From: an uncultured Clostridia bacterium
GTDB taxonomy: Bacteria; Bacillota; Clostridia; TANB77; CAG-508
Assembly (NCBI GenBank): GCA_944386645.1
Contig: CALXBW010000004.1
Coordinates: 11,256-75,255, forward strand
Reading direction: 5' to 3'
Length of the DNA: 64,000 nt
The notes under the pieces were generated by a model. That model had not been told where the DNA came from, made no database searches, and saw only the letters and a program-made list of their open reading frames with translations. This document shows, in pieces, positions 1 to 39,543 of this stretch; position 1 is the stretch's first letter; each line of letters starts with the position of its first letter. The position numbers were made by a program, and so were the translations under genes.

Positions 1-1500
1 ATAGATAAAAAATATATAGAAGATTCGATTGTAAATTTAAGAACAAAAAAGCAAATAGTTTTGGAAAAAAGAGAAGATGTAGATTGGGTTTATTTATATA
101 AAGCATATAAAGCAGAAGAAAACATTGCTGAAAAATTACTAACTTTACTTAAAAGTAAAAATGTTAAGAAAATTGATAATATAAAAGAAAAATTGGAGAA
201 ACAAGAAAAACAATATAATATACAGTTATCTGAAAAGCAAAAAGAAGCAATTGAGTTAGTTAATAATAATAATGTTTGTGTTATAACTGGTGGACCAGGT
301 ACAGGAAAAACAACTATAATAAAAAATATAATAGATATTTATAAGACAAAAAAGTTAAAAGTAATTTTATGTGCACCAACAGGAAGAGCTGCTAAAAGAA
401 TGAAAGAGGCAACTAATGAAGAAGCAAAAACTATACATAGATTACTTGAAATAGGCAAAATAGAAGAAGATAGAAATAGTATGGTTGAGTATGATGTAGC
501 TCCAATAGATGCGGATGTTATAATAATTGATGAGATGTCAATGGTAGATACATATATAATGAATTATTTAGTAAAAGCAATTTATAGAGGAACAAAATTA
601 ATATTAGTGGGAGATGAAAATCAATTACCATCTGTTGGTCCAGGGACTGTATTAAAAGACATAATAGATTCTAAAAAAATTCCTACAATATGTTTAAATA
701 AAATTTTTAGGCAAGCTGCAAAAAGTCAGATAGTATTAAATGCTCATAATGTAAATAATGGAAAAGATTTTGTAAAAAAAGAAGATATGAATTCTGATAT
801 TAAGGAAGATTTTTTCTATATAAATGAATCAAATCAGGAAAAAATATTAAATCATGTTCTCACACTTTCTAAAAATAAATTAAAAATGTCTGGTAGTGAA
901 GATTTTTATAATAATATACAAGTGTTAACTCCGACTAAAAAAGGATTAGTTGGAACTAGAGAGCTTAATAAAAGACTACAAGAAGTATTAAACCCTCCAT
1001 CTGAAAGCAAAAAAGAGAAAAAATATGGTGAGGTAGTTTTCAGAGAGGGAGATAAAATAATGCAAATAAAAAATAACTATGATATTTTTTGGGAGAAAAG
1101 GACTGGAAATTACGAATCTGGAACTGGTATTTTTAATGGTGAAATGGGAATTATAGAAAATATTGATGAAGAATCAAAACAAGTAAAGATATTATTTGAT
1201 GATGATAAAATTGTATGGTATACATATTCTGACTTAGAGCAGATTGAACATTCATATAGTATAACTATTCATAAATCACAAGGAAGTGAGTTTGATGTAG
1301 CAATAATAGTAATTCCAAAAGCTTATCAAATGTTATTAACCAGAAATTTACTATATACAGGATTGACAAGAGCAAAAAAAATGCTTATATTAATTGGAGG
1401 GAAAGAAACCATAAATTTTATGATTCAAAATGCAAAAATAAAACAAAGAAATACTGGTTTGAAATTTAAATTACAAAATAGTTTATTAAATAATTTTTAG
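1..1500 (+). CDS. recD2: ATP-dependent RecD2-like helicase, C-terminal ~500 aa. The 5' end is truncated by the window: the reading frame is open from base 1.
   Basis: Walker A GGPGTGKTT, VILCAPTGRAAKRM and IIIDEMSMVD (helicase motifs I, Ia, II), and a C-terminal SH3/UvrD-like region IHKSQGSEFD. The frame of ORF 61..1500 stays open back to position 1. Confidence 0.85.
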   Translation: MDKKYIEDSIVNLRTKKQIVLEKREDVDWVYLYKAYKAEENIAEKLLTLLKSKNVKKIDNIKEKLEKQEKQYNIQLSEKQKEAIELVNNNNVCVITGGPGTGKTTIIKNIIDIYKTKKLKVILCAPTGRAAKRMKEATNEEAKTIHRLLEIGKIEEDRNSMVEYDVAPIDADVIIIDEMSMVDTYIMNYLVKAIYRGTKLILVGDENQLPSVGPGTVLKDIIDSKKIPTICLNKIFRQAAKSQIVLNAHNVNNGKDFVKKEDMNSDIKEDFFYINESNQEKILNHVLTLSKNKLKMSGSEDFYNNIQVLTPTKKGLVGTRELNKRLQEVLNPPSESKKEKKYGEVVFREGDKIMQIKNNYDIFWEKRTGNYESGTGIFNGEMGIIENIDEESKQVKILFDDDKIVWYTYSDLEQIEHSYSITIHKSQGSEFDVAIIVIPKAYQMLLTRNLLYTGLTRAKKMLILIGGKETINFMIQNAKIKQRNTGLKFKLQNSLLNNF

Positions 1501-1535
1501 TAAACTGTAGATATGGGGGCATAAAGGAGAATAAA

Positions 1536-2177
1536 TTGTATAACTTTTTGAATTTATGTTATCCAAATGTATGTGGTATTTGTGAGAAAATAAGTAATGA
1601 ATATATATGCAATAAGTGTAGATTAAAAATAAAACAGTATACTAAGTCAATTATAAACGAATTTGATAATGCAAAATATTTTAATACTCATGCATATATG
1701 TTTGCATATGATGGAATTATAAGAATGAAAATTATAAAATATAAATTTTTAAATTCACCCTATTTATATAAATTTTTTTCAAATATTATTTTAAATGATT
1801 TAAAATTAGTAGATTATATTAGAAGTTTTGATGTTATAATTCCAGTACCAATACATAAAAAAAGAAAGAAAAAAAGGGGATATAATCAATCTGAATTAAT
1901 AGCAAAAGAAATAGCAAAAAGATTAGAAGTTCAATTACAGTTAAATGTATTATATAAAAATGTAAATAATTCACCACAAAGTACTTTAAATCAAGAACAA
2001 AGAAAATATAATGCAAAGGGTGTATATATATTAAAAAATGAGAAATTAATAAAGAATAAAAATATATTAATTTTTGATGATATTTATACAACTGGTAATA
2101 CTGTAAATGAGTGTAGTAAGATAATAAGAAATGCACAAGTTAATAATGTTGGAGTATTAACACTAGCAAAAGATTAA
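1536..2177 (+). CDS. comFC: ComF-family competence protein (phosphoribosyltransferase domain)
   Basis: N-terminal Cys pairs CxxC...CxxC. PRTase motif ILIFDDIYTTGNT near the C-terminus. It sits directly downstream of recD2, as in many Firmicutes. Confidence 0.8.
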   Translation: MYNFLNLCYPNVCGICEKISNEYICNKCRLKIKQYTKSIINEFDNAKYFNTHAYMFAYDGIIRMKIIKYKFLNSPYLYKFFSNIILNDLKLVDYIRSFDVIIPVPIHKKRKKKRGYNQSELIAKEIAKRLEVQLQLNVLYKNVNNSPQSTLNQEQRKYNAKGVYILKNEKLIKNKNILIFDDIYTTGNTVNECSKIIRNAQVNNVGVLTLAKD

Positions 2178-2189
2178 AAGGAGAGATAA

Positions 2190-4175
2190 ATGGAAGATTT
2201 AGTAGAAAGTATATTAGATTATGTAAGAGCAGATTATACAGATTATGCAATTATGATAAATGGAGAATGGGGAAGTGGAAAGACATATTTTTGGAATAAT
2301 AAAGTAAGAAATAAAATTGAATCTTTAAGATTAAACGGAAAACAGTATACAACAATATATATGTCTTTATATGGAATATCAAATTTAGAGGATATAAGTA
2401 AAAAAATTTTTATAGAAACTACTCAATTAATGGATAAGAATCTAAAAAGATATATGTATGCACATAATCAACTAACTATTCCTGAGTATGCAAAAACTGG
2501 ATTAGATATGGCCAATTTTTTTGGAGTTACAAAAAATGGTGATAGAGTAGATTATGAGCAGTTTTTTACAACTGATGATAAAGTATTATGTTTCGATGAT
2601 TTGGAAAGAGCAAATGTTGATGTTATAGATATATTAGGATATATTAATAATTTTGTTGAGCATGACCATATAAAAACTATAATAATTTGTAATGAAAAAG
2701 AGTTGTCAAATAAATTAAAAAGTTCTAATCTTGAAATGAAAACTTTTATTGCAACATATTTATTAGATAAAGAAGGAGATTTATCTAAGACAGATAAACC
2801 AATGGTTGAAAAAATTAGAGACAAAATAGAATATGTATTTGATAAAGCAAATGATTATGAAAGAATAAAAGAAAAATTAATAGGTGAGACTTTTGAATAT
2901 GTTCCAGAATTTGCTTATATTATTGATGGTTTATTGATGCGTTATTCAAAAGATGAAGATTTAATAAGATTTTTAAAGGAAAATTCACAATTATTGGTTT
3001 CAACATTTAATAAAAGTGGTACAAGAAACTTAAGAATTTTAAAACATGCATTAAATGATTTTAAAAAAATATTTGATATGGTTAATAAATATTACCCAAA
3101 TACAAATTATAAAGTTTTAAAAACTATGCTTATATTTACAATTGCTATTTCATTTGAAATAAAAGCAGGAAAAATTACAAAAAATAAATTTATAAATATT
3201 GAGAATAATGAAGAATATAAAGCGATACTTGTATCATCAAGAGTTTTAATGGATAATAGACAATTCTATATTAAAGAATTTGATAATAACTATTATTACA
3301 ATTTTAAAGCAGAATATAGATTTTTTAAATTTATTGAAATATATGTAAGAACTAGAATATTTGATATGAAGGTATTTAAAAGAGATATGGAAGTTATAAT
3401 AAATACAATAGATACTGATAAATTACCAGGTTATAAAAGATTATTAACAGAAGAATACTGGAAGATTTCTGATGAACAGTTTAATGGGGTCATTGAAGAA
3501 GTTGTAGACGATGTAAAAAATGGAAGAATTGGTCTAATTGATGTTGTAAAATTATATGTATATTTTAATTATTTTTCTAAAAGAAAATTAATAGACTATG
3601 ATACTAAAAGTATAAAAAATCTTTTCTTAAATGGAATGAATATATCTGCTTTAACTTCTGAATATTGTGACGATGCAGATGAACAATTAAGTCAAATAGG
3701 TATAGGTGAAATAACTCCAGATATGCAAGATGTATTTGATCATTTTGAAAATATAAATAAAACATTAAAAGATAAAATGTATGCACAAAATGCAGAAGAT
3801 CTATTTAAATGTATTCCAATGAAAATGGAGATGTTTTATACGAAGTTTGAAAAATACATGGAAATACCAATATTCAAATATTATGATGCATATCAAATAT
3901 TCCAGAGAATATCATGTGCTAATAATGAAGATATAGTTTCTATAAGAGAGTGTTTGATGAAAAGAGCAAAAAAATATACGAAAGAGTTAGAGCCAGAAAT
4001 TGAAAATTTAACAAAATTAAAAAATATAATAGATACTTATTTAGCTGGAAAAGATATAGGTATAAAAATAGTAATGTTACAAGAATTTTCAAATGATTTA
4101 GATACTATATTAAAAATATATAAAAATGAGCCTACATTAGAAGGAATGCAAATACAAAGTAGTAACGTTGAATAA
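2190..4175 (+). CDS. KAP-family P-loop NTPase (661 aa)
   Basis: Exact KAP Walker A signature INGEWGSGKTYFW (G-x-W-G-x-GKT) near the N-terminus and a downstream LCFDDLER Walker B-like motif. The long C-terminal region has no other recognisable domain. Confidence 0.75.
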   Translation: MEDLVESILDYVRADYTDYAIMINGEWGSGKTYFWNNKVRNKIESLRLNGKQYTTIYMSLYGISNLEDISKKIFIETTQLMDKNLKRYMYAHNQLTIPEYAKTGLDMANFFGVTKNGDRVDYEQFFTTDDKVLCFDDLERANVDVIDILGYINNFVEHDHIKTIIICNEKELSNKLKSSNLEMKTFIATYLLDKEGDLSKTDKPMVEKIRDKIEYVFDKANDYERIKEKLIGETFEYVPEFAYIIDGLLMRYSKDEDLIRFLKENSQLLVSTFNKSGTRNLRILKHALNDFKKIFDMVNKYYPNTNYKVLKTMLIFTIAISFEIKAGKITKNKFINIENNEEYKAILVSSRVLMDNRQFYIKEFDNNYYYNFKAEYRFFKFIEIYVRTRIFDMKVFKRDMEVIINTIDTDKLPGYKRLLTEEYWKISDEQFNGVIEEVVDDVKNGRIGLIDVVKLYVYFNYFSKRKLIDYDTKSIKNLFLNGMNISALTSEYCDDADEQLSQIGIGEITPDMQDVFDHFENINKTLKDKMYAQNAEDLFKCIPMKMEMFYTKFEKYMEIPIFKYYDAYQIFQRISCANNEDIVSIRECLMKRAKKYTKELEPEIENLTKLKNIIDTYLAGKDIGIKIVMLQEFSNDLDTILKIYKNEPTLEGMQIQSSNVE

Positions 4176-4180
4176 AACTC

Positions 4181-4300
4181 ACAAGTGCATTTATATATTT
4201 TAGAAAAATATAACAGTAGAAATGTATGGGAAAACATCGTTTGCCCAAACTCCAAGGAGCCATTCAAAAAACTTACAAAAAATTAATATATTATTTTATC
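4181..4300. repeat. Copy 1 of a ~120 bp direct repeat, in the KAP-to-amidase intergenic region
   Basis: Aligns with 4471..4587 over acaagtgcatWtatatatt..agaaaaatataacagtagaaatgta, followed by a conserved 9 bp hairpin (tGGGaAAAC atc GTTTgCCCa). Confidence 0.8.
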
Positions 4301-4470
4301 GGTCTCACATTCTTCGTAAGTATGAGCTTACGATGTACAACTACTTCGACTGTCAAAAATAATATATTAATTTTTTTTTGACTAAGCCTAGATAAAAAGT
4401 AAAAAACTATTCACTCTTCACTATTCATTATTAATTATTCATTGCAATCAAAGATTGCGGACATAACATT

Positions 4471-4587
4471 ACAAGTGCATATATATTAGAAAAATATAAC
4501 AGTAGAAATGTAGGGGCAAACATTGTTCGCCCGCTCAACAAGGATCTACTAAAAAACATTTAACAAAAATAATATATTTATTTTTAA
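4471..4587. repeat. Copy 2 of the ~120 bp direct repeat
   Basis: Second copy 290 bp downstream of copy 1. Its hairpin is gGGGcAAAC att GTTcGCCCg, with changes relative to copy 1 that keep the hairpin paired. Confidence 0.8.
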
Positions 4588-4605
4588 CTGTACGAGAGTA
4601 TGATT

Positions 4606-4633
4606 TTAAAAATTGTTTACATTGAAAATTTTT
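4606..4633 (+). promoter_or_regulatory. Sigma-A-like promoter TTTACA-N16-TGaTATAAT upstream of the amidase gene
   Basis: The -35 TTTACA (4606-4611) and extended -10 TGaTATAAT (4625-4633) were read directly. An RBS aaaaggagaagtg precedes the ATG at 4672. Confidence 0.5.
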
Positions 4634-4671
4634 ATGATATAATGTAAAAAAATTAAAAAAGGAGAAGTGAA

Positions 4672-6207
4672 ATGAAAAGAAAAATTTTTATAAGTACATT
4701 AATATGTTTAATTGTTTTAGTAATGTCAACTAATGTACATGCATTAAAACTTGTTTTAGATGCTGGACATGGAGGTTCTGATTCAGGAGCAATTTATAAT
4801 GGAGTTTATGAAAAAAATATTAATCTTAGAATTGCTTTGAATTTGAGAGAATATTTAAGTGATTATGAAAATGTAGAAGTTATATTAACAAGAGATAATG
4901 ATACTTTTGCAGAAGTTTTTGATAAAGCTATGGTAGCGAGAATAAATTCTGCAGATTTATTTATTAGTTTACATACAAATGATACAGAAGGAACAGGAAA
5001 TGGTGCTGAAGCTTTTGTTTCTGCAAATACTAGTTTACCAAAATACAATGAACAAACTACAGCTTTAGCTAATAAAATATTACAAAATCTTTCAGCTTTA
5101 GGTTTAGAAAATAGAGGTGTAAAAACAAAACAAATAAGAACAGAAAATGGAGATTTTTATTATAGAAACCCTGATGGAACAACTGCTGATGCTGATTGGT
5201 ATGGTATTATAAGATATGCAATGAGAGGCTGCAAGATGGACTATGGTGAAATAATATATGGGCAATATAATGATATAAGAGATGGAAGCGGAGTTCCTAC
5301 TATTTTAGTTGAACATTGTTTTATTAATGGTGATTTTGAATATATAAATTCAGAAGAAGACCTAAGAAAATTAGCAGAAGCTGATGGAAAGGCTATAGTT
5401 GACTATTATGGATTAAAGAAAAAATCTGTAGATACAAATATAAGTTTAACTGCAAATAGTACAGATATAAATTCTGGAGATCAAGTAACAGTAAATGTTA
5501 ATTCATCAACTGCATTAGGAGCTTATGAAGTTTCTATAGTAGATGATGGTGGATTAAATTTTGTTACAAGTTCTGGACAAGAAGGTAGTGGAGGACAATT
5601 AATAACTGGTTCATCAACATCAGGAGTAAATGATTTAGCTACATTTACTTTCGAAGCTCCTGATACAACTTTAGATAAGACATATAATGTTAAAATAAAA
5701 GTTTCAAAAATGGAGACACCAAATAATAATCCAGTATATGAAAAAGAAGCAACTATTACTATAAATGCTAAAGGTAGAGAAGCAAAAACACAATTTGTTG
5801 GTGAAATTAAAAATGAGAAATTACCTAATACAGGTTTAGGTTTTTTATTAGGAAATAAATCTGATATATTAGATGGTAGTGATTTAAAAGCCACATACTC
5901 TGATAGCATTATAGAGAAAGATGGAACAGAAATTACAGAAAATACACAATTTGTAACAGGCGATATTGTTGATATTGATGGTACAAATTATATACTTATA
6001 ATATATGGTGATGGAAATAAAGATGGAAAAATAAGTATATTAGATACATCAACAGTAATATCTGAAATACGTGGAAAAAAGCAATTAGATGATGTTCAAA
6101 AAATTGCACTTGATGTGACAAAAGAAGGAAAAATAAGCGTTTTGGATTCAACAAAAATAATTAACGTAATTAGAGGAAAAAGTGAGTTTTTATCATTGCT
6201 AAATTAA
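4672..6207 (+). CDS. Secreted N-acetylmuramoyl-L-alanine amidase (Amidase_3) with an internal LPNTG and a C-terminal dockerin-like repeat pair
   Basis: Signal peptide. LVLDAGHGGSDSGA (Amidase_3 zinc-binding motif). Internal KLPNTG. Two C-terminal repeats, GDGNKDGKISILDTSTVISEIRGKK and DVTKEGKISVLDSTKIINVIRGK, resemble dockerin Ca-binding segments. Confidence 0.7.
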   Translation: MKRKIFISTLICLIVLVMSTNVHALKLVLDAGHGGSDSGAIYNGVYEKNINLRIALNLREYLSDYENVEVILTRDNDTFAEVFDKAMVARINSADLFISLHTNDTEGTGNGAEAFVSANTSLPKYNEQTTALANKILQNLSALGLENRGVKTKQIRTENGDFYYRNPDGTTADADWYGIIRYAMRGCKMDYGEIIYGQYNDIRDGSGVPTILVEHCFINGDFEYINSEEDLRKLAEADGKAIVDYYGLKKKSVDTNISLTANSTDINSGDQVTVNVNSSTALGAYEVSIVDDGGLNFVTSSGQEGSGGQLITGSSTSGVNDLATFTFEAPDTTLDKTYNVKIKVSKMETPNNNPVYEKEATITINAKGREAKTQFVGEIKNEKLPNTGLGFLLGNKSDILDGSDLKATYSDSIIEKDGTEITENTQFVTGDIVDIDGTNYILIIYGDGNKDGKISILDTSTVISEIRGKKQLDDVQKIALDVTKEGKISVLDSTKIINVIRGKSEFLSLLN

Positions 6208-6278
6208 TATACTTGACAAATACTAAAATTTAGTATAGAAATATAGTAAATAAAAGGAGGTGAAGGAGAGGGTTTTAG

Positions 6279-6938
6279 GTGAGTAAAAAAAATTTCAACA
6301 CAGGTAGAAGAGCTAAAAAAAGCAATAGAAAAAAAATTGCAATAAAAATATATTTTGTTATAATTGTTATTTTTGTTATAATAACAGGAATGGTAATTGC
6401 AAGTAATAAAAAAGATGATAACAAAGAAAATAATATAGCACAAAAGGCATATAGTGAAAGTCAAACAAATGTAAGTAATTTAACAGATATTAAAGAAGTA
6501 AAAAAACAAGATGAAGTAGTATCTGTTAGCGATATGCCAAAAAAAATAGGAAATTATGAAGTGATAGGAAAAATTGTAATAGATAGTATAGATGTAGAAA
6601 AATATATATTAAATAGAACTACTATAAATTCATTAGATTTATCTGTAACAAAGTTTACAGGGCCTGAAATAAATGAGGTAGGCAATTTTTGTATAACAGG
6701 ACATAATTATAAAAATATTTTTAAAAGATTAAAAGAATTAGAGATAGGTGATGAATTTTATTTAGTAGGTACAGATGGTAGAAGGGTTTATTATAAAATA
6801 TATGATAAATATTCTATTAATCCAGAAAATGAAGAATGTTTAAATCAAGAAACAGGAGGAAAAAGAGAAGTAACATTAATTACTTGCGATCCTGGTGCTG
6901 TAACAAGATTAATAATAAAAGCAGAAGAGAAAATTTAG
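6279..6938 (+). CDS. Sortase (class A/D-like transpeptidase), GTG start
   Basis: N-terminal TM anchor. Catalytic His (FCITGHN), Cys (TLITCDP) and Arg (TRLIIK) motifs. Confidence 0.8.
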   Translation: MSKKNFNTGRRAKKSNRKKIAIKIYFVIIVIFVIITGMVIASNKKDDNKENNIAQKAYSESQTNVSNLTDIKEVKKQDEVVSVSDMPKKIGNYEVIGKIVIDSIDVEKYILNRTTINSLDLSVTKFTGPEINEVGNFCITGHNYKNIFKRLKELEIGDEFYLVGTDGRRVYYKIYDKYSINPENEECLNQETGGKREVTLITCDPGAVTRLIIKAEEKI

Positions 6939-6950
6939 GAGGAAATAAAA

Positions 6951-7673
6951 ATGAAAAAAACTTTAATAGGATTTATAATAATGGTTGTAGCAATGTTTAT
7001 GGCCTTATCAGGAGCTGTTAATGCTGCAACAAAGATGACTGTAGAAGGAGCAAAAAATGTTGAAGTGGGAGATGAAATAACATTAACTGTTAAATTCCCA
7101 GAAGCATTTGGATATCAATTTACTGTTAATTTTGATGATACAAAATTAGAATATTTAGGTACACTTGAAGCTGTTAATAATGGATCATTTACAGTAGCTT
7201 TTCAATCAACAGGAGATGAAAGATTTACATCTTATGATTTAAAATTTAAAGCTTTGGAAAAAGGTGATGTTAATATTACAATTTCTGATTTAGAATTTGT
7301 AAGTGAAGATGTAGAATTAATAGATGTTGAAGCACCAGATCCAATAACATTTTCAATTACAGAACCAGTAACTGATCCAGAACCAACACCTGATCCAGAT
7401 GAAAATACAACAGGTGATGAAAATAACACAGCTGGAGATAATACAACTGGAGATGAAAACAATATAGGAGATAACAATACAACAACAGATGATGAAAATG
7501 GAAATGTTGCTGGAAATACAGATAACGGAAATACAAATAAAGAAGATAATGGAGATGAAACAATTACTTCACTAAAAGATGCAAAAACAGGTTTTGATAT
7601 AATGTATGTTGCTTACTTATTAATGGCTATAGTAGTAGCTGCAGTAATTGTTAAGGTTTCAAAAAGAAAATAA
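6951..7673 (+). CDS. Surface protein with a cohesin-like beta-sandwich domain and a C-terminal membrane anchor with a charged tail
   Basis: Signal peptide ...SGAVNAATK. Central domain GDEITLTVKF...FTVNFDDTKLEYLG...GDVNITISD, resembling type-I cohesin. Acidic TGDENN repeats. C-terminal hydrophobic segment plus KVSKRK tail. No canonical LPXTG (KDAKTG precedes the anchor). Confidence 0.5.
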   Translation: MKKTLIGFIIMVVAMFMALSGAVNAATKMTVEGAKNVEVGDEITLTVKFPEAFGYQFTVNFDDTKLEYLGTLEAVNNGSFTVAFQSTGDERFTSYDLKFKALEKGDVNITISDLEFVSEDVELIDVEAPDPITFSITEPVTDPEPTPDPDENTTGDENNTAGDNTTGDENNIGDNNTTTDDENGNVAGNTDNGNTNKEDNGDETITSLKDAKTGFDIMYVAYLLMAIVVAAVIVKVSKRK

Positions 7674-7960
7674 GAAATAATATAAATTTATAAAAGAGGT
7701 CATATAAACTATAAAAAGTTTAATGACCTCTTACTTGTTGTAAAAATAATTATTTTTTACATTTAACAAATCACTACGTTTTAAAAGAAAACTTATATAT
7801 TTAATCGGAGAGAAGGAAGTTTTCAAGAAACTGCGATTTGTCTATAATTTAGAATAAATAGAAAGAATTAATCTTTCATAATTTTACCTTTTAAAATTAA
7901 TATAAATAAACTAAATTCATATCATAAAAATTAAAAGATAAAATTTAATTTTGAGCATAA

Positions 7961-8143
7961 CTATTTTTGAACATTTCTATTTGCAATTTCAATAGCCTTT
8001 GTAACTATATTACCACAAGTTTTAGAAGGTACATTACTCCATCCACCATCAGCTTTAACTTGTTCATATACTCCTAGCTCTTTTGCTATTTCTTCTTTTA
8101 ATGCTTCAGACATTATGCTCTTCTTAGTTGAATTATTAGCCAT
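7961..8143 (-). CDS. Small acid-soluble spore protein, alpha/beta type
   Basis: A 60 aa protein with the diagnostic alpha/beta-type SASP core EIAKELGV...GG..NV.SKTCGNIVTKAIEIA. Confidence 0.85.
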   Translation of the reverse strand: MANNSTKKSIMSEALKEEIAKELGVYEQVKADGGWSNVPSKTCGNIVTKAIEIANRNVQK

Positions 8144-8415
8144 CAGGTAAAAACCTCCTCAGAGAAGAAAAGTAGTATTTCAAAGAAATTAAAAAAATTA
8201 TTAAGTATACTTAAATAAATATAAAATATAAAGAAATACTAAATATAATATATAATAAGTAAACTTGAAAATAAAATTTTAATTTCTTTAATATTATTAT
8301 GAGCAAAAAAACAAAAAATATTTATAGATAAATTTGCCAAAAAAAAATTAAATAGTTTACAATGAAATAAAAATGTGTTTTAATAATATTATTATGTAAG
8401 GGGAGATGATTACTT

Positions 8416-36918: not shown

Positions 36919-38076
36919 ATGGCCAATTATGTATATAGAGCGGTATTAGAAAACTACAGTAAAGAAGAAGGAATAAAATGTAAAGAAAAAGATTCTGATA
37001 AATCTTTAAGTTATCATGTTAATTTTGGAAGTAAAAAGAATGTGAAAACAAAATATATATCTACTAGTAAAAAAATAGGAATTGCTGCATATAAATATGC
37101 AATAGGTAAAGTTAATGAAAACAGAATTAAAAGATCAAAAATAGTATTAATAGATTTAGATAAATTACCAAAAGAACAAAAATATTATGACTTAACAGAT
37201 GAAACTGTATTAAAAGAACAAAAAATTAGTCGTATGTCGAAAAATTATTGTAAATCAGATGCAGAAGTTACAATAGAAGGAGATATAGGACCTGAATGTG
37301 TAAAAGAAATACCACCAATGTTAGTAGATATTTTGTTTGCACTTGAGAGTTCTGGTAATGCAAATAAAATGTTCTATGATATGTTATTAGACAGAGTGGC
37401 TGAAGGTGATATGGAACTAGATAAAATAATTGAAAAATGTAAATTTAATAAATTAGAGCAAAATTTTATTAAATCATATTATACAGATATGAATCAATTA
37501 GAAGAAACAGCTAAACAAATACTGCCTGAGATGTTGGATGAGAAAAAAGAAGATAATAGAGAGTTTATAGCAAATTGTATAAGAACACAGATAATAAAAA
37601 ATGTTGTAGCATCACAATTACATAGAGATTTAAAATATTATACAGGTCCATTAGAAGGAAAATTAAATTCTCATTATAGAACAGAAAAAGATAGAGTGAA
37701 AAAAGATTGTTATTATTTTAATGATTATTTATCAATAAAAGTAAATAATGATGATATGATAAAACTACCAAATGGAATTAATTATGAAGTTGGTAAGAAA
37801 AATGAAGTTAAAACATTGCAGTTAATAGAAGCGCATTTAACTAAAGAAAATTTTGAAACTCCATCAATACCACGTGATAAAGACAATAGATATAAATCAT
37901 TTGAAGGAATAAGAATAGAAATTGATAAAAAAAGAGTAAAAGATAATAATGAAATAAATTTAGATGATATAAAAAGTACATTAAAAATAGGAAATGCAAA
38001 AGAGAGAAAAGAAGTAGATAATTATATTCAAAGACAAATGCAAAGACAAAGAGGAGCGCGCGAAAGAGGGGAATAA
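36919..38076 (+). CDS. Hypothetical protein A of an uncharacterised four-gene cassette (385 aa)
   Basis: Lys/Glu-rich. N-terminal region contains YVYR...YISTSKK. No confidently recognised domain. Translationally coupled to the next ORF (taaAATG). Confidence 0.45.
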   Translation: MANYVYRAVLENYSKEEGIKCKEKDSDKSLSYHVNFGSKKNVKTKYISTSKKIGIAAYKYAIGKVNENRIKRSKIVLIDLDKLPKEQKYYDLTDETVLKEQKISRMSKNYCKSDAEVTIEGDIGPECVKEIPPMLVDILFALESSGNANKMFYDMLLDRVAEGDMELDKIIEKCKFNKLEQNFIKSYYTDMNQLEETAKQILPEMLDEKKEDNREFIANCIRTQIIKNVVASQLHRDLKYYTGPLEGKLNSHYRTEKDRVKKDCYYFNDYLSIKVNNDDMIKLPNGINYEVGKKNEVKTLQLIEAHLTKENFETPSIPRDKDNRYKSFEGIRIEIDKKRVKDNNEINLDDIKSTLKIGNAKERKEVDNYIQRQMQRQRGARERGE

Positions 38077-38077
38077 A

Positions 38078-38524
38078 ATGAATGTGTATACAAATGAAGA
38101 TTACAGTAAAGCATATTCAGAAGTATTAGAAGTTTTAAGATATATACCAAAAGTAGATTTAGTAAAAATACCAAAAGATGAGATAATGTTTTATATAAAA
38201 AATATGGACAATAAACATAATTACAAATACAATTTTAATAAACCATTTGAAGATCAAAAATTAATGAGATTAAGTAAAATAATTATATCAAATATTTATA
38301 TAAAGTATTTAGCAAAAAATAAAGAAGAATTATTAGAAAATGAAAGAAAAGAAATTCTGAAGTTAGAAGAAGAAAATAGAAAAATATATAACACAGATAA
38401 TATATTTAGAAATAAGAATTTAGATATTGAAAAAGATGAAAATAATAGTTTGATTGTTATAGAAAAACAAGGATTTTTTAGGAAAATAATAGATAAAATT
38501 AGGAGATTGTTCAAGTTGACATAA
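38078..38524 (+). CDS. Hypothetical protein B (148 aa)
   Basis: The start is 2 nt after the stop of gene A. No motif recognised. Confidence 0.45.
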   Translation: MNVYTNEDYSKAYSEVLEVLRYIPKVDLVKIPKDEIMFYIKNMDNKHNYKYNFNKPFEDQKLMRLSKIIISNIYIKYLAKNKEELLENERKEILKLEEENRKIYNTDNIFRNKNLDIEKDENNSLIVIEKQGFFRKIIDKIRRLFKLT

Positions 38525-38600
38525 AAACCAAAATATGGTATAATATTTAAGTAAAAATTTTTATTAAAAAATTAATTGATTTTGAGGAGGAATCCGAAAG

Positions 38601-38894
38601 ATGAATATTAAAGAAATTATTTATGGTGACGAAGGTGTTTTAAATCGTTTTAGAAATGGAGATTATACCATTTCTAATGAGGAGAAAAGCACAATATTAG
38701 ATTTTGCTAGAAAAGTAAATTCTGGTGTCAAAGAGGGAAATTTAAACCCTCAGGACTTTGCTCTTTACAGTGAGTTAATGTATTTTTTTATACATTATTC
38801 TAAAGAGGTTGATGGAGTAGAAGAACTTCTTGATGAGATTTATGGGGAAGTTCAAGATGGATTAGATTTTGATTACAATGAGGAGGATGAATAA
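38601..38894 (+). CDS. Hypothetical acidic protein C (97 aa)
   Basis: RBS gaggagg. C-terminal acidic tail DGLDFDYNEEDE. GC is higher than for genes A and B. Confidence 0.45.
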   Translation: MNIKEIIYGDEGVLNRFRNGDYTISNEEKSTILDFARKVNSGVKEGNLNPQDFALYSELMYFFIHYSKEVDGVEELLDEIYGEVQDGLDFDYNEEDE

Positions 38895-38898
38895 TAAT

Positions 38899-39543
38899 AT
38901 GGCGACACGTCCATCATGGAGAATAGTAAAAACGGATAACTTTATCAAAATTGTAAAAAATCACTTTGAATTTAAATTTAATCCAGGTTTTTCTGTTACT
39001 CAAAAACGGAAAAATGTAGTTGCTTTACACCAAGCAATTGGTGATAAAGCATTAGAGGTTTCAACTAAATCTGATCTGAAACTCGGAAGAATGTTAAGTG
39101 CATTCAATTTAAGAATCAACGGAATACCACTTGAGTGTGTATTCCAATCTGCTAAGGTTTATCAATATGGAGGACCTTATAAAGACCTCTTAAATGTGTC
39201 TCCAAAAGATGCTAAAAGAGATGAGCGTCACAAGAGTTCAGGAAAATTAATCTACTTCGAATATGAAGGAAAAAGATTTCCTCTTGAACCAAAAACATTC
39301 TTTTATGACTTTATTTATATAAAGGCTGTAAAAGAGTGTATTCCTTTGGAGGAGGTAAAAGATATAGTTCAGTATTCGCATTTTTCGGATATTGAATTCA
39401 ATCCTAAAAAATCAATTAACTGCCAAGCTAAAAGCGTTGCTATAATTAAAGCAATGCTGATGGTATTTGGCGAAGTTCCTCATATCAATGATATTGAGGA
39501 ATTTAAAAAATTTTACAAAGTAATTCAGGCAGAAAATGCTTGA
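38899..39543 (+). CDS. Hypothetical protein D (214 aa)
   Basis: Start reassigned to the ATG at 38899 (RBS gaggagga 10 nt upstream). Contains YQYGGPYKDLL and FYDFIYIKAV. ~35% GC against the ~25% background. A strong terminator follows it. Confidence 0.45.
   Translation: MATRPSWRIVKTDNFIKIVKNHFEFKFNPGFSVTQKRKNVVALHQAIGDKALEVSTKSDLKLGRMLSAFNLRINGIPLECVFQSAKVYQYGGPYKDLLNVSPKDAKRDERHKSSGKLIYFEYEGKRFPLEPKTFFYDFIYIKAVKECIPLEEVKDIVQYSHFSDIEFNPKKSINCQAKSVAIIKAMLMVFGEVPHINDIEEFKKFYKVIQAENA

What the first reader, a model, noticed from the sequence alone, without database searches (positions are those of the whole stretch)
2190..4175. Standalone KAP-family NTPase after recD2-comFC: a candidate abortive-infection or defence gene
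The 661 aa protein has the exact KAP signature INGEWGSGKTYFW. Nothing else of known function is fused or adjacent. The founding prokaryotic KAP NTPase, F-plasmid PifA, mediates phage T7 exclusion, so solitary KAP NTPases are plausible defence or abortive-infection effectors. The recD2-comFC junction is otherwise a conserved housekeeping context. The gene is immediately followed by an unusual ~500 bp repeat-containing non-coding region (see the next finding).
Basis: partly seen in the sequence, partly recalled or inferred. Interest (0 to 1): 0.6.

Follow-up and report, generated by a model that had tools for sequence, protein, structure and literature searches.

The report
Clade-fixed KAP ATPase behind recD2-comFC
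A 661-residue KAP-type ATPase gene that looks like a mobile phage-defence candidate is in fact a fixed, very strongly conserved third gene of the recD2-comFC DNA-handling operon across a whole clade of gut Clostridia. It is therefore either a domesticated immune gene or an unrecognised partner of the DNA-uptake machinery, not a variable abortive-infection insert.

Summary
The ORF (2190..4175, +, 661 aa) and its P-loop motif are real. It passes Pfam KAP_NTPase and matches PADLOC candidate family PDC-S49 and phrog_4740 over its full length. It is not standalone. It starts 12 nt after comFC with its own RBS. In 80 species-level genomes anchored on ComFC, a homologue lies directly downstream in 70 of 79 informative loci: 65 intact, 5 contig-cut, 5 decayed, 4 absent. 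It is more conserved than its neighbours: 66-83% identity against 36-55% for ComFC and 55-73% for RecD2. Its dN/dS is 0.018 against 0.073 for MetRS. It co-diverges with RecD2 (r=0.81). It stays in the operon whichever partner is lost. Relatives at 28-36% identity lie in a B. cereus defence island, next to an integrase and a Tn7-like transposon, on Bacillus plasmids and on prophages, never beside comFC. On a tree the operon-linked genes form one short-branched clade nested among these mobile relatives, which implies one ancient capture followed by fixation. The protein is a soluble AAA+/STAND-like NTPase (weakly RdrA-like) joined to an all-alpha C-terminal solenoid with no recognisable effector. 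The family-level link to defence stands.

The parts
1..1500 (+). 3' part of recD2 (SF1B helicase). The gene runs off the window's 5' end. The start at 61 in the ORF list is a listing artefact.
   Evidence: Frame 1 is open from base 1. NCBIfam equivalog TIGR01448 scores 566 bits against a cutoff of 500. Pfam finds AAA_19, AAA_30, SH3_13 and UvrD_C_2.
1536..2177 (+). comFC-like gene: ComF-family protein with an N-terminal Cys4 zinc ribbon and a PRTase domain, 213 aa
   Evidence: Pfam Pribosyltran, DZR_2 and PRTase_3. TIGR00201 comF covers profile positions 1-190 of 190 at E=7e-33, but 114 bits is below the cutoff of 233. Sources name its homologues 'ComF family protein'.
2178..2189 (+). 12-nt comFC-KAP spacer carrying the RBS AAGGAGAG (2178-2185); no terminator
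   Evidence: Sequence. No terminator-like site and no above-chance promoter in 1-4800. The gap is 13-100 nt in most of the 70 related loci.
2190..4175 (+). KAP-family / PDC-S49-type P-loop NTPase gene, 661 aa
   Evidence: Across 61 species, 274 of 661 positions are at least 97% conserved. dN/dS is 0.018.
2262..2285 (+). Walker A motif GEWGSGKT (aa 25-32)
   Evidence: G25, W27, G28, S29, G30, K31 and T32 are invariant in the 53-sequence family alignment, which includes relatives at about 33% identity.
2463..2567 (+). Low-confidence insert in the NTPase domain (aa 92-126) containing the conserved IPEYAKTGLDMANFFG. It is not hydrophobic enough to be a TM helix.
   Evidence: pLDDT is below 50 for residues 92-126. 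E99 and K102 are invariant or nearly invariant. The maximum 19-residue Kyte-Doolittle value is 1.42, at residue 309.
2583..2609 (+). Walker B motif VLCFDDLER (aa 132-140), followed by the invariant block ANVDVIDILGYINNFVEHDHIKTIIICNEKEL
   Evidence: D136, D137, L138, E139 and R140 are invariant across the family. The block is essentially invariant across 61 species.
2907..4124 (+). C-terminal all-alpha solenoid (about aa 240-645). It has no recognisable catalytic fold, and its distal third evolves 3-5 times faster than the N-terminal 400 aa.
   Evidence: Stand-alone model with pLDDT 87. No PDB match; best E=0.13 with TM below 0.25. dN/dS for aa 401-645 is 0.019-0.15, against 0.006-0.05 for aa 1-400.

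Best explanation
The gene is the third cistron of a vertically inherited recD2-comFC-kap operon in a deep clade of low-GC, small-genome gut Clostridia. It descends from one ancient capture of a mobile PDC-S49/KAP 'defence-candidate' gene, which then became fixed and slowed down in evolution. The points so far are shown. The protein is a soluble, TM-less P-loop NTPase of the AAA+/STAND-like KAP type with intact Walker A and B motifs, joined to a non-catalytic alpha-solenoid. The following steps are inferred. It acts as an ATP-driven oligomeric switch whose solenoid binds a partner or ligand. In this clade that activity has been recruited to the ssDNA-handling module it is co-expressed with: RecD2, a 5'-3' ssDNA helicase, and ComFC, the cytoplasmic ssDNA-binding partner of the ComEC import channel. 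It would serve as a gatekeeper or regulator of incoming or processed DNA, not as a free-standing, fast-evolving anti-phage toxin. Its function is important but not essential, because about 10% of lineages have lost it.
For: Operon: the gap to comFC is 12 nt, the gene has its own RBS, and no terminator intervenes. Synteny: it lies directly after comFC in 70 of 79 species-level genomes and in 70 of 80 metagenome loci. The genes further downstream differ from lineage to lineage. The gene remains when recD2 is gone (L009-12) and when comFC is gone (L147, L148, L157, L132: recD2 directly followed by KAP). Vertical descent: KAP and RecD2 distances correlate at r=0.81, Mantel p about 0.001. GC content shows no anomaly. 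Constraint: identity is 66-83% against 36-55% for ComFC and 55-73% for RecD2. dN/dS is 0.018 overall and 0.006 for aa 1-400, against 0.053 for RecD2, 0.073 for MetRS and 0.21 for ComFC at unsaturated dS. Across 61 species, 274 of 661 positions are at least 97% conserved. Single origin: all operon-linked sequences form one short-branched clade nested among unlinked relatives from mobile contexts (contexts). Fold: the N-terminal module resembles RdrA, ORC, RFC and ClpC. The solenoid has no match. There is no TM helix. ComFC role: it forms an ssDNA-import complex with ComEC and ComFA in Firmicutes (PMC12663950, PMC9005727).
Against: There is no direct evidence of any physical or functional interaction with ComFC or RecD2. 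Operon linkage could merely reflect use of a shared promoter. The protein scores as well against PDC-S49 as its mobile relatives do, 255 bits against 250-301 bits. All family-invariant residues are retained, so the ancestral activity, possibly defence, may be unchanged. Nine of 79 lineages lost or degraded the gene while keeping comFC, and some kept KAP without comFC, so there is no strict co-dependence. It could not be checked whether these genomes have comFA, comEC or dprA, or whether they are transformable.
Confidence: 0.5

Rival explanations
1. The gene is still a bona fide single-gene anti-phage system (PDC-S49 type, like the KAP-plus-unknown-domain defences shown experimentally). It happens to be fixed as core innate immunity in this clade. 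The position behind comFC only supplies constitutive transcription.
For: Full-length matches to PADLOC PDC-S49 and phrog_4740. Its score against PDC-S49 equals that of relatives from defence islands, plasmids and prophages. KAP NTPases fused to uncharacterised C-terminal regions, including ones from gut metagenomes, protect E. faecalis against phages and require Walker B (PMC13552941). The conserved engine with a faster-evolving distal C-terminus resembles an NLR-like sensor. The gene is dispensable in about 10% of lineages.
Against: A dN/dS of 0.018, lower than an aminoacyl-tRNA synthetase, together with order-scale positional fixation and co-divergence with RecD2, is atypical of defence genes, which are usually patchy and fast-evolving. 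There is no defence island here. No clade member was found on viral contigs. Unlike EF_KAP it has no TM helices (PMC13552941).
Confidence: 0.3
2. It is a housekeeping NTPase with a role unrelated to DNA uptake or immunity, for example in sporulation, the cell envelope or protein-complex assembly. The operon position is a historical accident preserved by promoter dependence.
For: The constraint is of housekeeping strength. Neighbours in various lineages include spoVT, spoIIAA-AB-sigF, an amidase and a sortase. The helical scaffold has no nucleic-acid-binding signature.
Against: The downstream neighbours change between lineages, whereas recD2 and comFC are the only persistent partners. All other family members are in mobile or defence contexts. 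The gene has been lost repeatedly.
Confidence: 0.12
3. One reading: a solitary, variably present, recently acquired abortive-infection or defence gene inserted at a housekeeping junction.
For: KAP family membership and the PifA precedent. A PADLOC candidate hit. A repeat-rich spacer lies downstream.
Against: The gene is present at the same position in 70 of 79 species, is monophyletic and co-diverges with RecD2, and has native GC content. The downstream repeat is a strain-level indel of about 235 nt that is absent from sister strains which carry the same gene. The experimentally studied EF_KAP was reported not to act by abortive infection (PMC13552941).
Confidence: 0.03

Closest known systems
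PADLOC 'phage defence candidate' PDC-S49 (models PDLC05029-31)
   Same: Full-length profile match (aa 11-642, E=2.9e-76). It has the same length of about 620-690 aa and the same two-part architecture. Relatives in B. cereus, Paenibacillus and C. estertheticum match equally well and sit in defence or mobile contexts.
   Different: PDC-S49 is a single-gene candidate inferred from embedding in defence islands, and no paper in the searched library mentions it by name. The window gene is operon-embedded, clade-fixed and hyper-conserved, with no defence island nearby.
EF_KAP and gut-metagenome KAP P-loop NTPase defence proteins (PMC13552941, PLoS Biol 2026)
   Same: A single polypeptide with an N-terminal KAP NTPase and an uncharacterised C-terminal region of about 320-420 aa with no structural match. 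Intact Walker motifs. Origin in gut Firmicutes.
   Different: EF_KAP is modelled with two TM helices and was found next to small serine recombinases. The window protein has no TM helix and has a housekeeping operon context. Sequence relatedness to those proteins was not tested because their sequences were not retrieved.
PifA of the F plasmid (founding prokaryotic KAP NTPase, phage T7 exclusion)
   Same: KAP-family P-loop domain (Pfam PF07693).
   Different: Only the N-terminal region of about 175 aa finds enterobacterial plasmid or phage-plasmid relatives, at about 23-30% identity. The C-terminal domain is unrelated. The gene is chromosomal and fixed, not plasmid-borne.
RdrA, the ring-forming ATPase of the RADAR defence system (PDB 8hr8)
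   Same: Best solved-structure match to the full-length model (Foldseek E=9e-4). Both are an AAA+/STAND-like NTPase with helical extensions, which suggests assembly into an oligomeric ring.
   Different: The TM-score is only about 0.3 and identity is 10-14%. There is no RdrB-type deaminase partner nearby, and the C-terminal domain differs.
ComFA-ComFC module of the Firmicute DNA-uptake complex (PMC12663950)
   Same: An NTPase gene in one operon with comFC. ComFC normally works with a dedicated ATPase.
   Different: ComFA is a DEAD-box-type ssDNA translocase encoded upstream of comFC. The window protein is a KAP-type switch NTPase encoded downstream, and RecD2 occupies the upstream helicase position. 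No evidence shows that it replaces ComFA.

Membership tests
KAP family P-loop NTPase (Pfam PF07693) | Profile score above the Pfam gathering threshold | tested here: met
   32.3 bits against a cutoff of 20, E=8e-8. Only profile positions 6-202 of 293 align in the window protein. The 48%-identity relative P0243 aligns to positions 10-290 of 293.
KAP family P-loop NTPase (Pfam PF07693) | Intact Walker A (GxxGxGKT) and Walker B (hhhhDDLxR) motifs | tested here: met
   GEWGSGKT (aa 25-32) and VLCFDDLER (aa 132-140) are invariant across the 53-sequence family alignment and across 61 species.
KAP family P-loop NTPase (Pfam PF07693) | Transmembrane helices inserted in the P-loop domain. This is typical of many prokaryotic KAP NTPases (established knowledge, Aravind et al. 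2004) and is seen in EF_KAP (PMC13552941). | tested here: not met
   The maximum 19-residue Kyte-Doolittle hydropathy is 1.42. The equivalent insert (aa 92-126) is polar, conserved and of low pLDDT. This feature is common but not strictly defining.
PADLOC PDC-S49 candidate defence system | Full-length match to the PDC-S49 HMMs | tested here: met
   PDLC05031 E=2.9e-76, aa 11-642 to profile positions 16-614 of 624. The score is comparable to that of mobile relatives.
PADLOC PDC-S49 candidate defence system | Accessory, patchy distribution with embedding in a defence island or mobile element | tested here: not met
   Present at a fixed position in 70 of 79 species. Housekeeping neighbours. Co-divergence with RecD2. 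The feature is met only by the relatives at 28-36% identity.
PADLOC PDC-S49 candidate defence system | Confers phage resistance | not testable with these tools
   Requires a phage challenge. No paper in the library mentions PDC-S49.
Abortive-infection system | Infection-triggered death or growth arrest of the host cell mediated by a toxic effector | not testable with these tools
   No recognisable toxin or effector domain. EF_KAP was reported not to act by abortive infection (PMC13552941).
RADAR (RdrA-RdrB) | RdrA-like ATPase paired with an RdrB adenosine deaminase gene | tested here: not met
   Fold similarity is weak (TM about 0.3). No deaminase-like neighbour in the window or in related loci.
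comF competence operon (comFA-comFC type) | NTPase partner is a DEAD-box/SF2 ComFA helicase | tested here: not met
   The protein is a KAP P-loop NTPase, not SF2. The helicase in the operon is RecD2, an SF1B enzyme.
Core (clade-conserved, vertically inherited) gene | Present at an orthologous position in most species of the clade, co-diverging with neighbours, under purifying selection | tested here: met
   70 of 79 loci. r=0.81 with RecD2. dN/dS 0.018. The losses are nested within KAP-positive lineages.

The most novel reading that the evidence does not exclude
A defence-type KAP/PDC-S49 NTPase has been domesticated into a new, clade-specific component of the ssDNA uptake and processing machinery. 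It would be a physical partner or gatekeeper of ComFC and RecD2, for example licensing, timing or policing DNA that enters through ComEC. That would make recD2-comFC-kap a previously unrecognised three-gene DNA-handling module in uncultured gut Clostridia.
Probability: 0.25. Interest if true: 0.8.

Novelty: new variant of a known kind. Interest (0 to 1): 0.55.

Why it matters
Defence-prediction tools such as PADLOC would label this gene a phage-defence candidate in every genome of an abundant gut clade. The evidence here shows that it behaves like a core operon gene under stronger constraint than a tRNA synthetase. That is a caution for defence-system censuses of MAGs. It is also a clean natural example of an immune-type NTPase family splitting into a mobile lineage and a fixed, slow-evolving one. 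If the fixed form works with ComFC and RecD2, it would add a new player to natural transformation and ssDNA processing in Firmicutes that lack the classical comFA-comFC arrangement. If it is still an immune gene, it would be an unusually ancient, order-wide 'core immunity' gene.

Tried and rejected
- Rfam scan of 1-12000 found nothing relevant to the gene or to the downstream repeats.
- NCBIfam has no model for the KAP protein.
- A profile search of solved-structure sequences gave only coiled-coil noise.
- Foldseek with the C-terminal domain alone gave no significant match.
- A search for fused effector domains in family members, including the 818-aa P0287 with its N-terminal extension, found only KAP_NTPase.
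- A viral-contig scan with the window protein found no relative.
- Literature searches found nothing for 'PDC-S49' and nothing linking KAP with RecD2 or ComF.
- The terminator scan found no canonical terminator in 1-4800.
- I considered that the ComF-like PRTase is itself a defence PRTase of the ShosT, PsyrT or retron III-A type. I rejected this because its PADLOC scores (at most 48 bits) are well below its comF score (114 bits, full profile coverage), it has the ComF zinc ribbon, and sources annotate it as ComF family.
- I considered that the downstream repeat region marks a mobile-element boundary. I rejected this because sister strains with the same gene lack the extra segment of about 235 nt.
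- I could not test whether clade genomes encode comFA, comEC or dprA, because the genome and metagenome scan quotas were already spent on the synteny tests.
Full report
OBSERVATION. The ORF is real. It spans 2190..4175 on the + strand, starts with ATG and encodes 661 aa beginning MEDLVESILDYVRADYTDYAIMINGEWGSGKTYFW. An AAGGAGAG ribosome-binding site lies at 2178-2185, and the gene starts only 12 nt after the stop codon of the upstream gene. Pfam KAP_NTPase (PF07693) is matched above its gathering score (32.3 against 20 bits, E=8e-8), although only residues 6-179 align. NCBIfam has no model for the protein. The upstream genes are a true RecD2 helicase and a ComF-family protein. RecD2 matches the NCBIfam equivalog TIGR01448 at 566 bits for the window fragment and 813 bits for a full-length relative. 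The gene runs off the window's 5' end, and frame 1 is open from base 1. The ComF-family protein has a zinc ribbon and a PRTase domain. It covers the whole TIGR00201 profile but scores 114 bits, below the strict cutoff of 233. GC content over the gene (0.20-0.25) is the same as in the flanks.

WHAT FAMILY IT IS. The strongest library hits are full-length. PADLOC's 'phage defence candidate' PDC-S49 matches at E=2.9e-76 over aa 11-642. phrog_4740, of unknown function, matches at E=1e-66. An exhaustive search of 1.84 billion representatives found 5,734 relatives at E<=1e-3. These include many proteins of the same length (about 600-690 aa) down to about 25% identity. The Walker A motif (G25-T32), the Walker B motif (D136, D137, L138, E139, R140) and a set of other residues (Y223, K227, E228, K229, R282, S321, Y368, N579) are invariant even between relatives at about 33% identity. 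So the whole family probably shares one biochemical activity.

THE KEY RESULT: IT IS NOT STANDALONE. Homologues at 83%, 79% and 78% identity, from three different lineages, all lie 10-20 nt downstream of a ComF-like gene of 213-224 aa. The genes further downstream differ in each lineage: PALP plus RF-1; an unknown 600-aa gene plus spoVT and recG; a hexapeptide transferase plus spoIIAA-AB-sigF. In one lineage recD2 is not upstream at all. I then anchored a scan of one genome per species on ComFC instead of on KAP. It returned 80 loci from 80 uncultured gut Clostridia, including Clostridium sp. CAG:273, CAG:389, CAG:793 and 26_21. A KAP homologue lies directly after comFC in 70 of the 79 loci with room downstream. 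Of these, 65 are intact ORFs and 5 are cut by contig ends. Five more are disrupted or decayed (frameshifts in L026 and L073, an in-frame stop in L044, a truncation in L043, a remnant in L066). Four have no KAP homologue within 8 kb downstream. Every locus that lacks or has degraded the gene has KAP-positive nearest neighbours by ComFC or RecD2 similarity. For example, L091's ComFC is 80% identical to those of L072 and L087, and L026's RecD2 is 93% identical to that of L057. These are therefore independent secondary losses. Among 80 metagenome loci found with a KAP profile, 70 have comFC immediately upstream. Four have recD2 immediately upstream with no comFC between (L132, L147, L148, L157; in L157 the recD2-KAP gap is 44 nt). 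Only three are unlinked or have recD2 several kb away. The KAP gene thus stays with this operon whichever partner is lost.

CONSTRAINT AND DESCENT. Within the same loci KAP is 66-83% identical to the window protein, ComFC 36-55% and RecD2 55-73%. Across 61 species, 274 of 661 positions are at least 97% conserved, including the entire stretch CFDDLERANVDVIDILGYINNFVEHDHIKTIIICNEKEL. I compared the window with a sister strain at unsaturated synonymous divergence (dS 0.2-0.7). There dN/dS is 0.018 for KAP (0.006 for aa 1-400 and 0.019 for aa 401-645). It is 0.053 for RecD2, 0.073 for MetRS, 0.11-0.30 for the amidase, sortase and surface-protein genes, and 0.21 for ComFC. The ranking is the same in three more distant comparisons. 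KAP and RecD2 pairwise distances over 84 loci correlate at r=0.81 (Mantel p about 0.001), and KAP evolves at 0.64 times the RecD2 rate. This is vertical co-divergence under very strong purifying selection.

THE REST OF THE FAMILY IS MOBILE. None of the full-length relatives at 28-36% identity is next to comFC or recD2. In B. cereus the gene sits between three DDE transposases and a block of DUF8371, HNH and HamA-plus-helicase (Hachiman) genes. In Paenibacillus chitinolyticus it lies in an integrase-flanked variable region. In C. estertheticum it is followed by an integrase, a protein kinase and Tn7-like tnsABC-tniQ genes. Others lie on Bacillus plasmids (8 records with at least 80% coverage), on Bacillus phage PHBA67-T (28% identity over 97% of the query) and on about ten IMG/VR contigs. 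No member of the operon-linked clade was found on viral contigs. In a neighbour-joining tree of 69 sequences, all operon-linked genes form one short-branched clade. That clade includes a basal group at 45-49% identity, in which some members follow recD2 and a few have become unlinked. It is nested among long-branched relatives from mobile contexts, and the Tn7-adjacent C. estertheticum gene is the nearest outgroup. The simplest history is a single capture downstream of recD2-comFC in the clade ancestor, followed by fixation and a rate slowdown.

ANATOMY AND LIKELY MECHANISM. AlphaFold2 with a 53-sequence alignment gives a usable model (pLDDT 81). The N-terminal part is a P-loop alpha/beta core with a polar, conserved, low-confidence insert (aa 92-126, IPEYAKTGLDMANFFG). 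Many prokaryotic KAP NTPases carry TM helices at that position, but here no segment reaches TM-grade hydrophobicity. The rest (aa 240-645) is all-helical. The best solved-structure match is RdrA, the heptameric ATPase of RADAR, followed by ORC4, RFC and ClpC (E about 1e-3 to 1e-1, TM about 0.3). This indicates a generic ring-forming AAA+/STAND-like module. The C-terminal 426 aa modelled alone are confident (pLDDT 87) but match nothing (best E=0.13). They carry no nuclease, HEPN, TIR, SIR2 or other effector signature, and no family member shows a fused effector. I therefore infer an ATP-driven oligomeric switch whose solenoid binds a partner or ligand. Because the distal third evolves 3-5 times faster than the engine, it is the likely specificity element.

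INTERPRETATION. It is shown that the gene is a clade-fixed, co-transcribed-looking member of the recD2-comFC operon, derived from a mobile defence-candidate family. Its function is inferred. I rate at 0.5 the reading that it has been functionally integrated with the ssDNA-handling proteins it is expressed with. ComFC is the cytoplasmic ssDNA-binding partner of the ComEC channel and normally works with an ATPase, ComFA (PMC12663950, PMC9005727). comFA-comFC operons are widespread (PMC12448109), yet here the helicase position is held by RecD2. The main rival (0.3) is that the gene is still a single-gene anti-phage system that happens to be core. This is supported by the equal PDC-S49 scores of fixed and mobile members. 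It is also supported by experiments showing that KAP NTPases with uncharacterised C-terminal regions defend E. faecalis in a Walker-B-dependent, non-abortive manner (PMC13552941). PADLOC-type hits to genes present in every strain have precedent: PD-T4-6 occurs in every S. thermophilus strain listed in Table 3 of PMC11514479.

CONTEXT CHECKS. The rest of the window is housekeeping. It encodes an amidase with a dockerin domain, a sortase, MetRS, ffh, rimM, trmD, rplS, LonC, tsaBE, NrdD, a PBP, UvrA, cmk and a Mur ligase. The one exception is a DarT1-associated NADAR antitoxin hit at about 39 kb. The repeat-rich spacer after the gene is a strain-level feature. Sister strains with a 98%-identical KAP have one repeat unit and a 304-nt spacer. 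The window has an extra segment of about 235 nt carrying a second 105-nt repeat copy and a perfect 21-nt inverted repeat.

VERDICT. The KAP and defence-family assignment is supported. The locus is best described as a new, domesticated or fixed variant of a known candidate family. No paper in the searched library describes the recD2-comFC-KAP linkage.

Noticed in passing
window 4176-4671: The spacer after the KAP stop holds a 105-nt direct repeat (4193-4297 and 4479-4583, 79% identity) and a perfect 21-nt inverted repeat (4277-4297 and 4356-4376). Sister strains L180 and L181 have only one unit and a 304-nt spacer, so the window carries a strain-specific extra segment of about 235 nt. There is no Rfam match and no other copy in the 64-kb window.
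   Followed up: partly
window 36919-39543: The ORF 38869..39543 (224 aa) is a strong DarT1-associated NADAR antitoxin (PF22397, E=1e-67). It is preceded by a 385-aa ORF (weak DUF7587 hit) and a 148-aa ORF with no Pfam hit. This may be a DarT-NADAR toxin-antitoxin or defence module, and it is the only defence-like element seen in the parts of the window that were annotated (bases 1 to about 50,000; ORFs beyond that were not scanned).
   Followed up: no
L180:5084-7310 and L181:5083-7309: In two independent assemblies of the sister strain, recD2 is called as two ORFs (158 + 567 aa). A frame change occurs after '...LEKFRHWYIKL*'. This could be a real frameshift, a pseudogene or a shared assembly artefact. 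The window starts downstream of this point, so its state there is unknown.
   Followed up: partly
L072:8639-9250 and L087:8639-9305: In two related species a small extra ORF (90-117 aa, no similarity noted) lies between comFC and the KAP gene, giving a gap of about 610-670 nt. The KAP ORF there appears to have an N-terminal extension of about 20-30 aa. Their close relative L091 (ComFC 80% identical) has lost the KAP gene altogether.
   Followed up: no
L173:7460-19881 (B. cereus CM129586.1): The 36%-identity KAP relative sits in an apparent defence island. It is flanked by three tandem DDE transposases and an HTH gene on one side and by a 273-aa unknown, DUF8371, an HNH protein and HamA plus a 1110-aa helicase (Hachiman) on the other. 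The unknowns there may be further candidates.
   Followed up: no
window 1536-2177 (ComFC): ComFC gives weak PADLOC hits to the PRTase toxins ShosT (E=4e-13) and PsyrT (E=3e-11), and to retron PRTase_III-A. The helicase-plus-PRTase pairing (RecD2-ComFC, ComFA-ComFC) may parallel a helicase-PRTase architecture in PsyrT. That architecture is recalled from memory; the hit here covers only PsyrT profile positions 594-683. If correct, it hints at an evolutionary link between competence proteins and defence modules.
   Followed up: no
window 4672-7673: Immediately downstream lies a cell-surface cluster: an Amidase_3 protein with a C-terminal dockerin domain, a sortase, and a 240-aa Asn/Thr/Asp-rich protein with a C-terminal membrane anchor. 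These genes evolve fast (dN/dS 0.11-0.30) and are absent from this position in more distant relatives.
   Followed up: no
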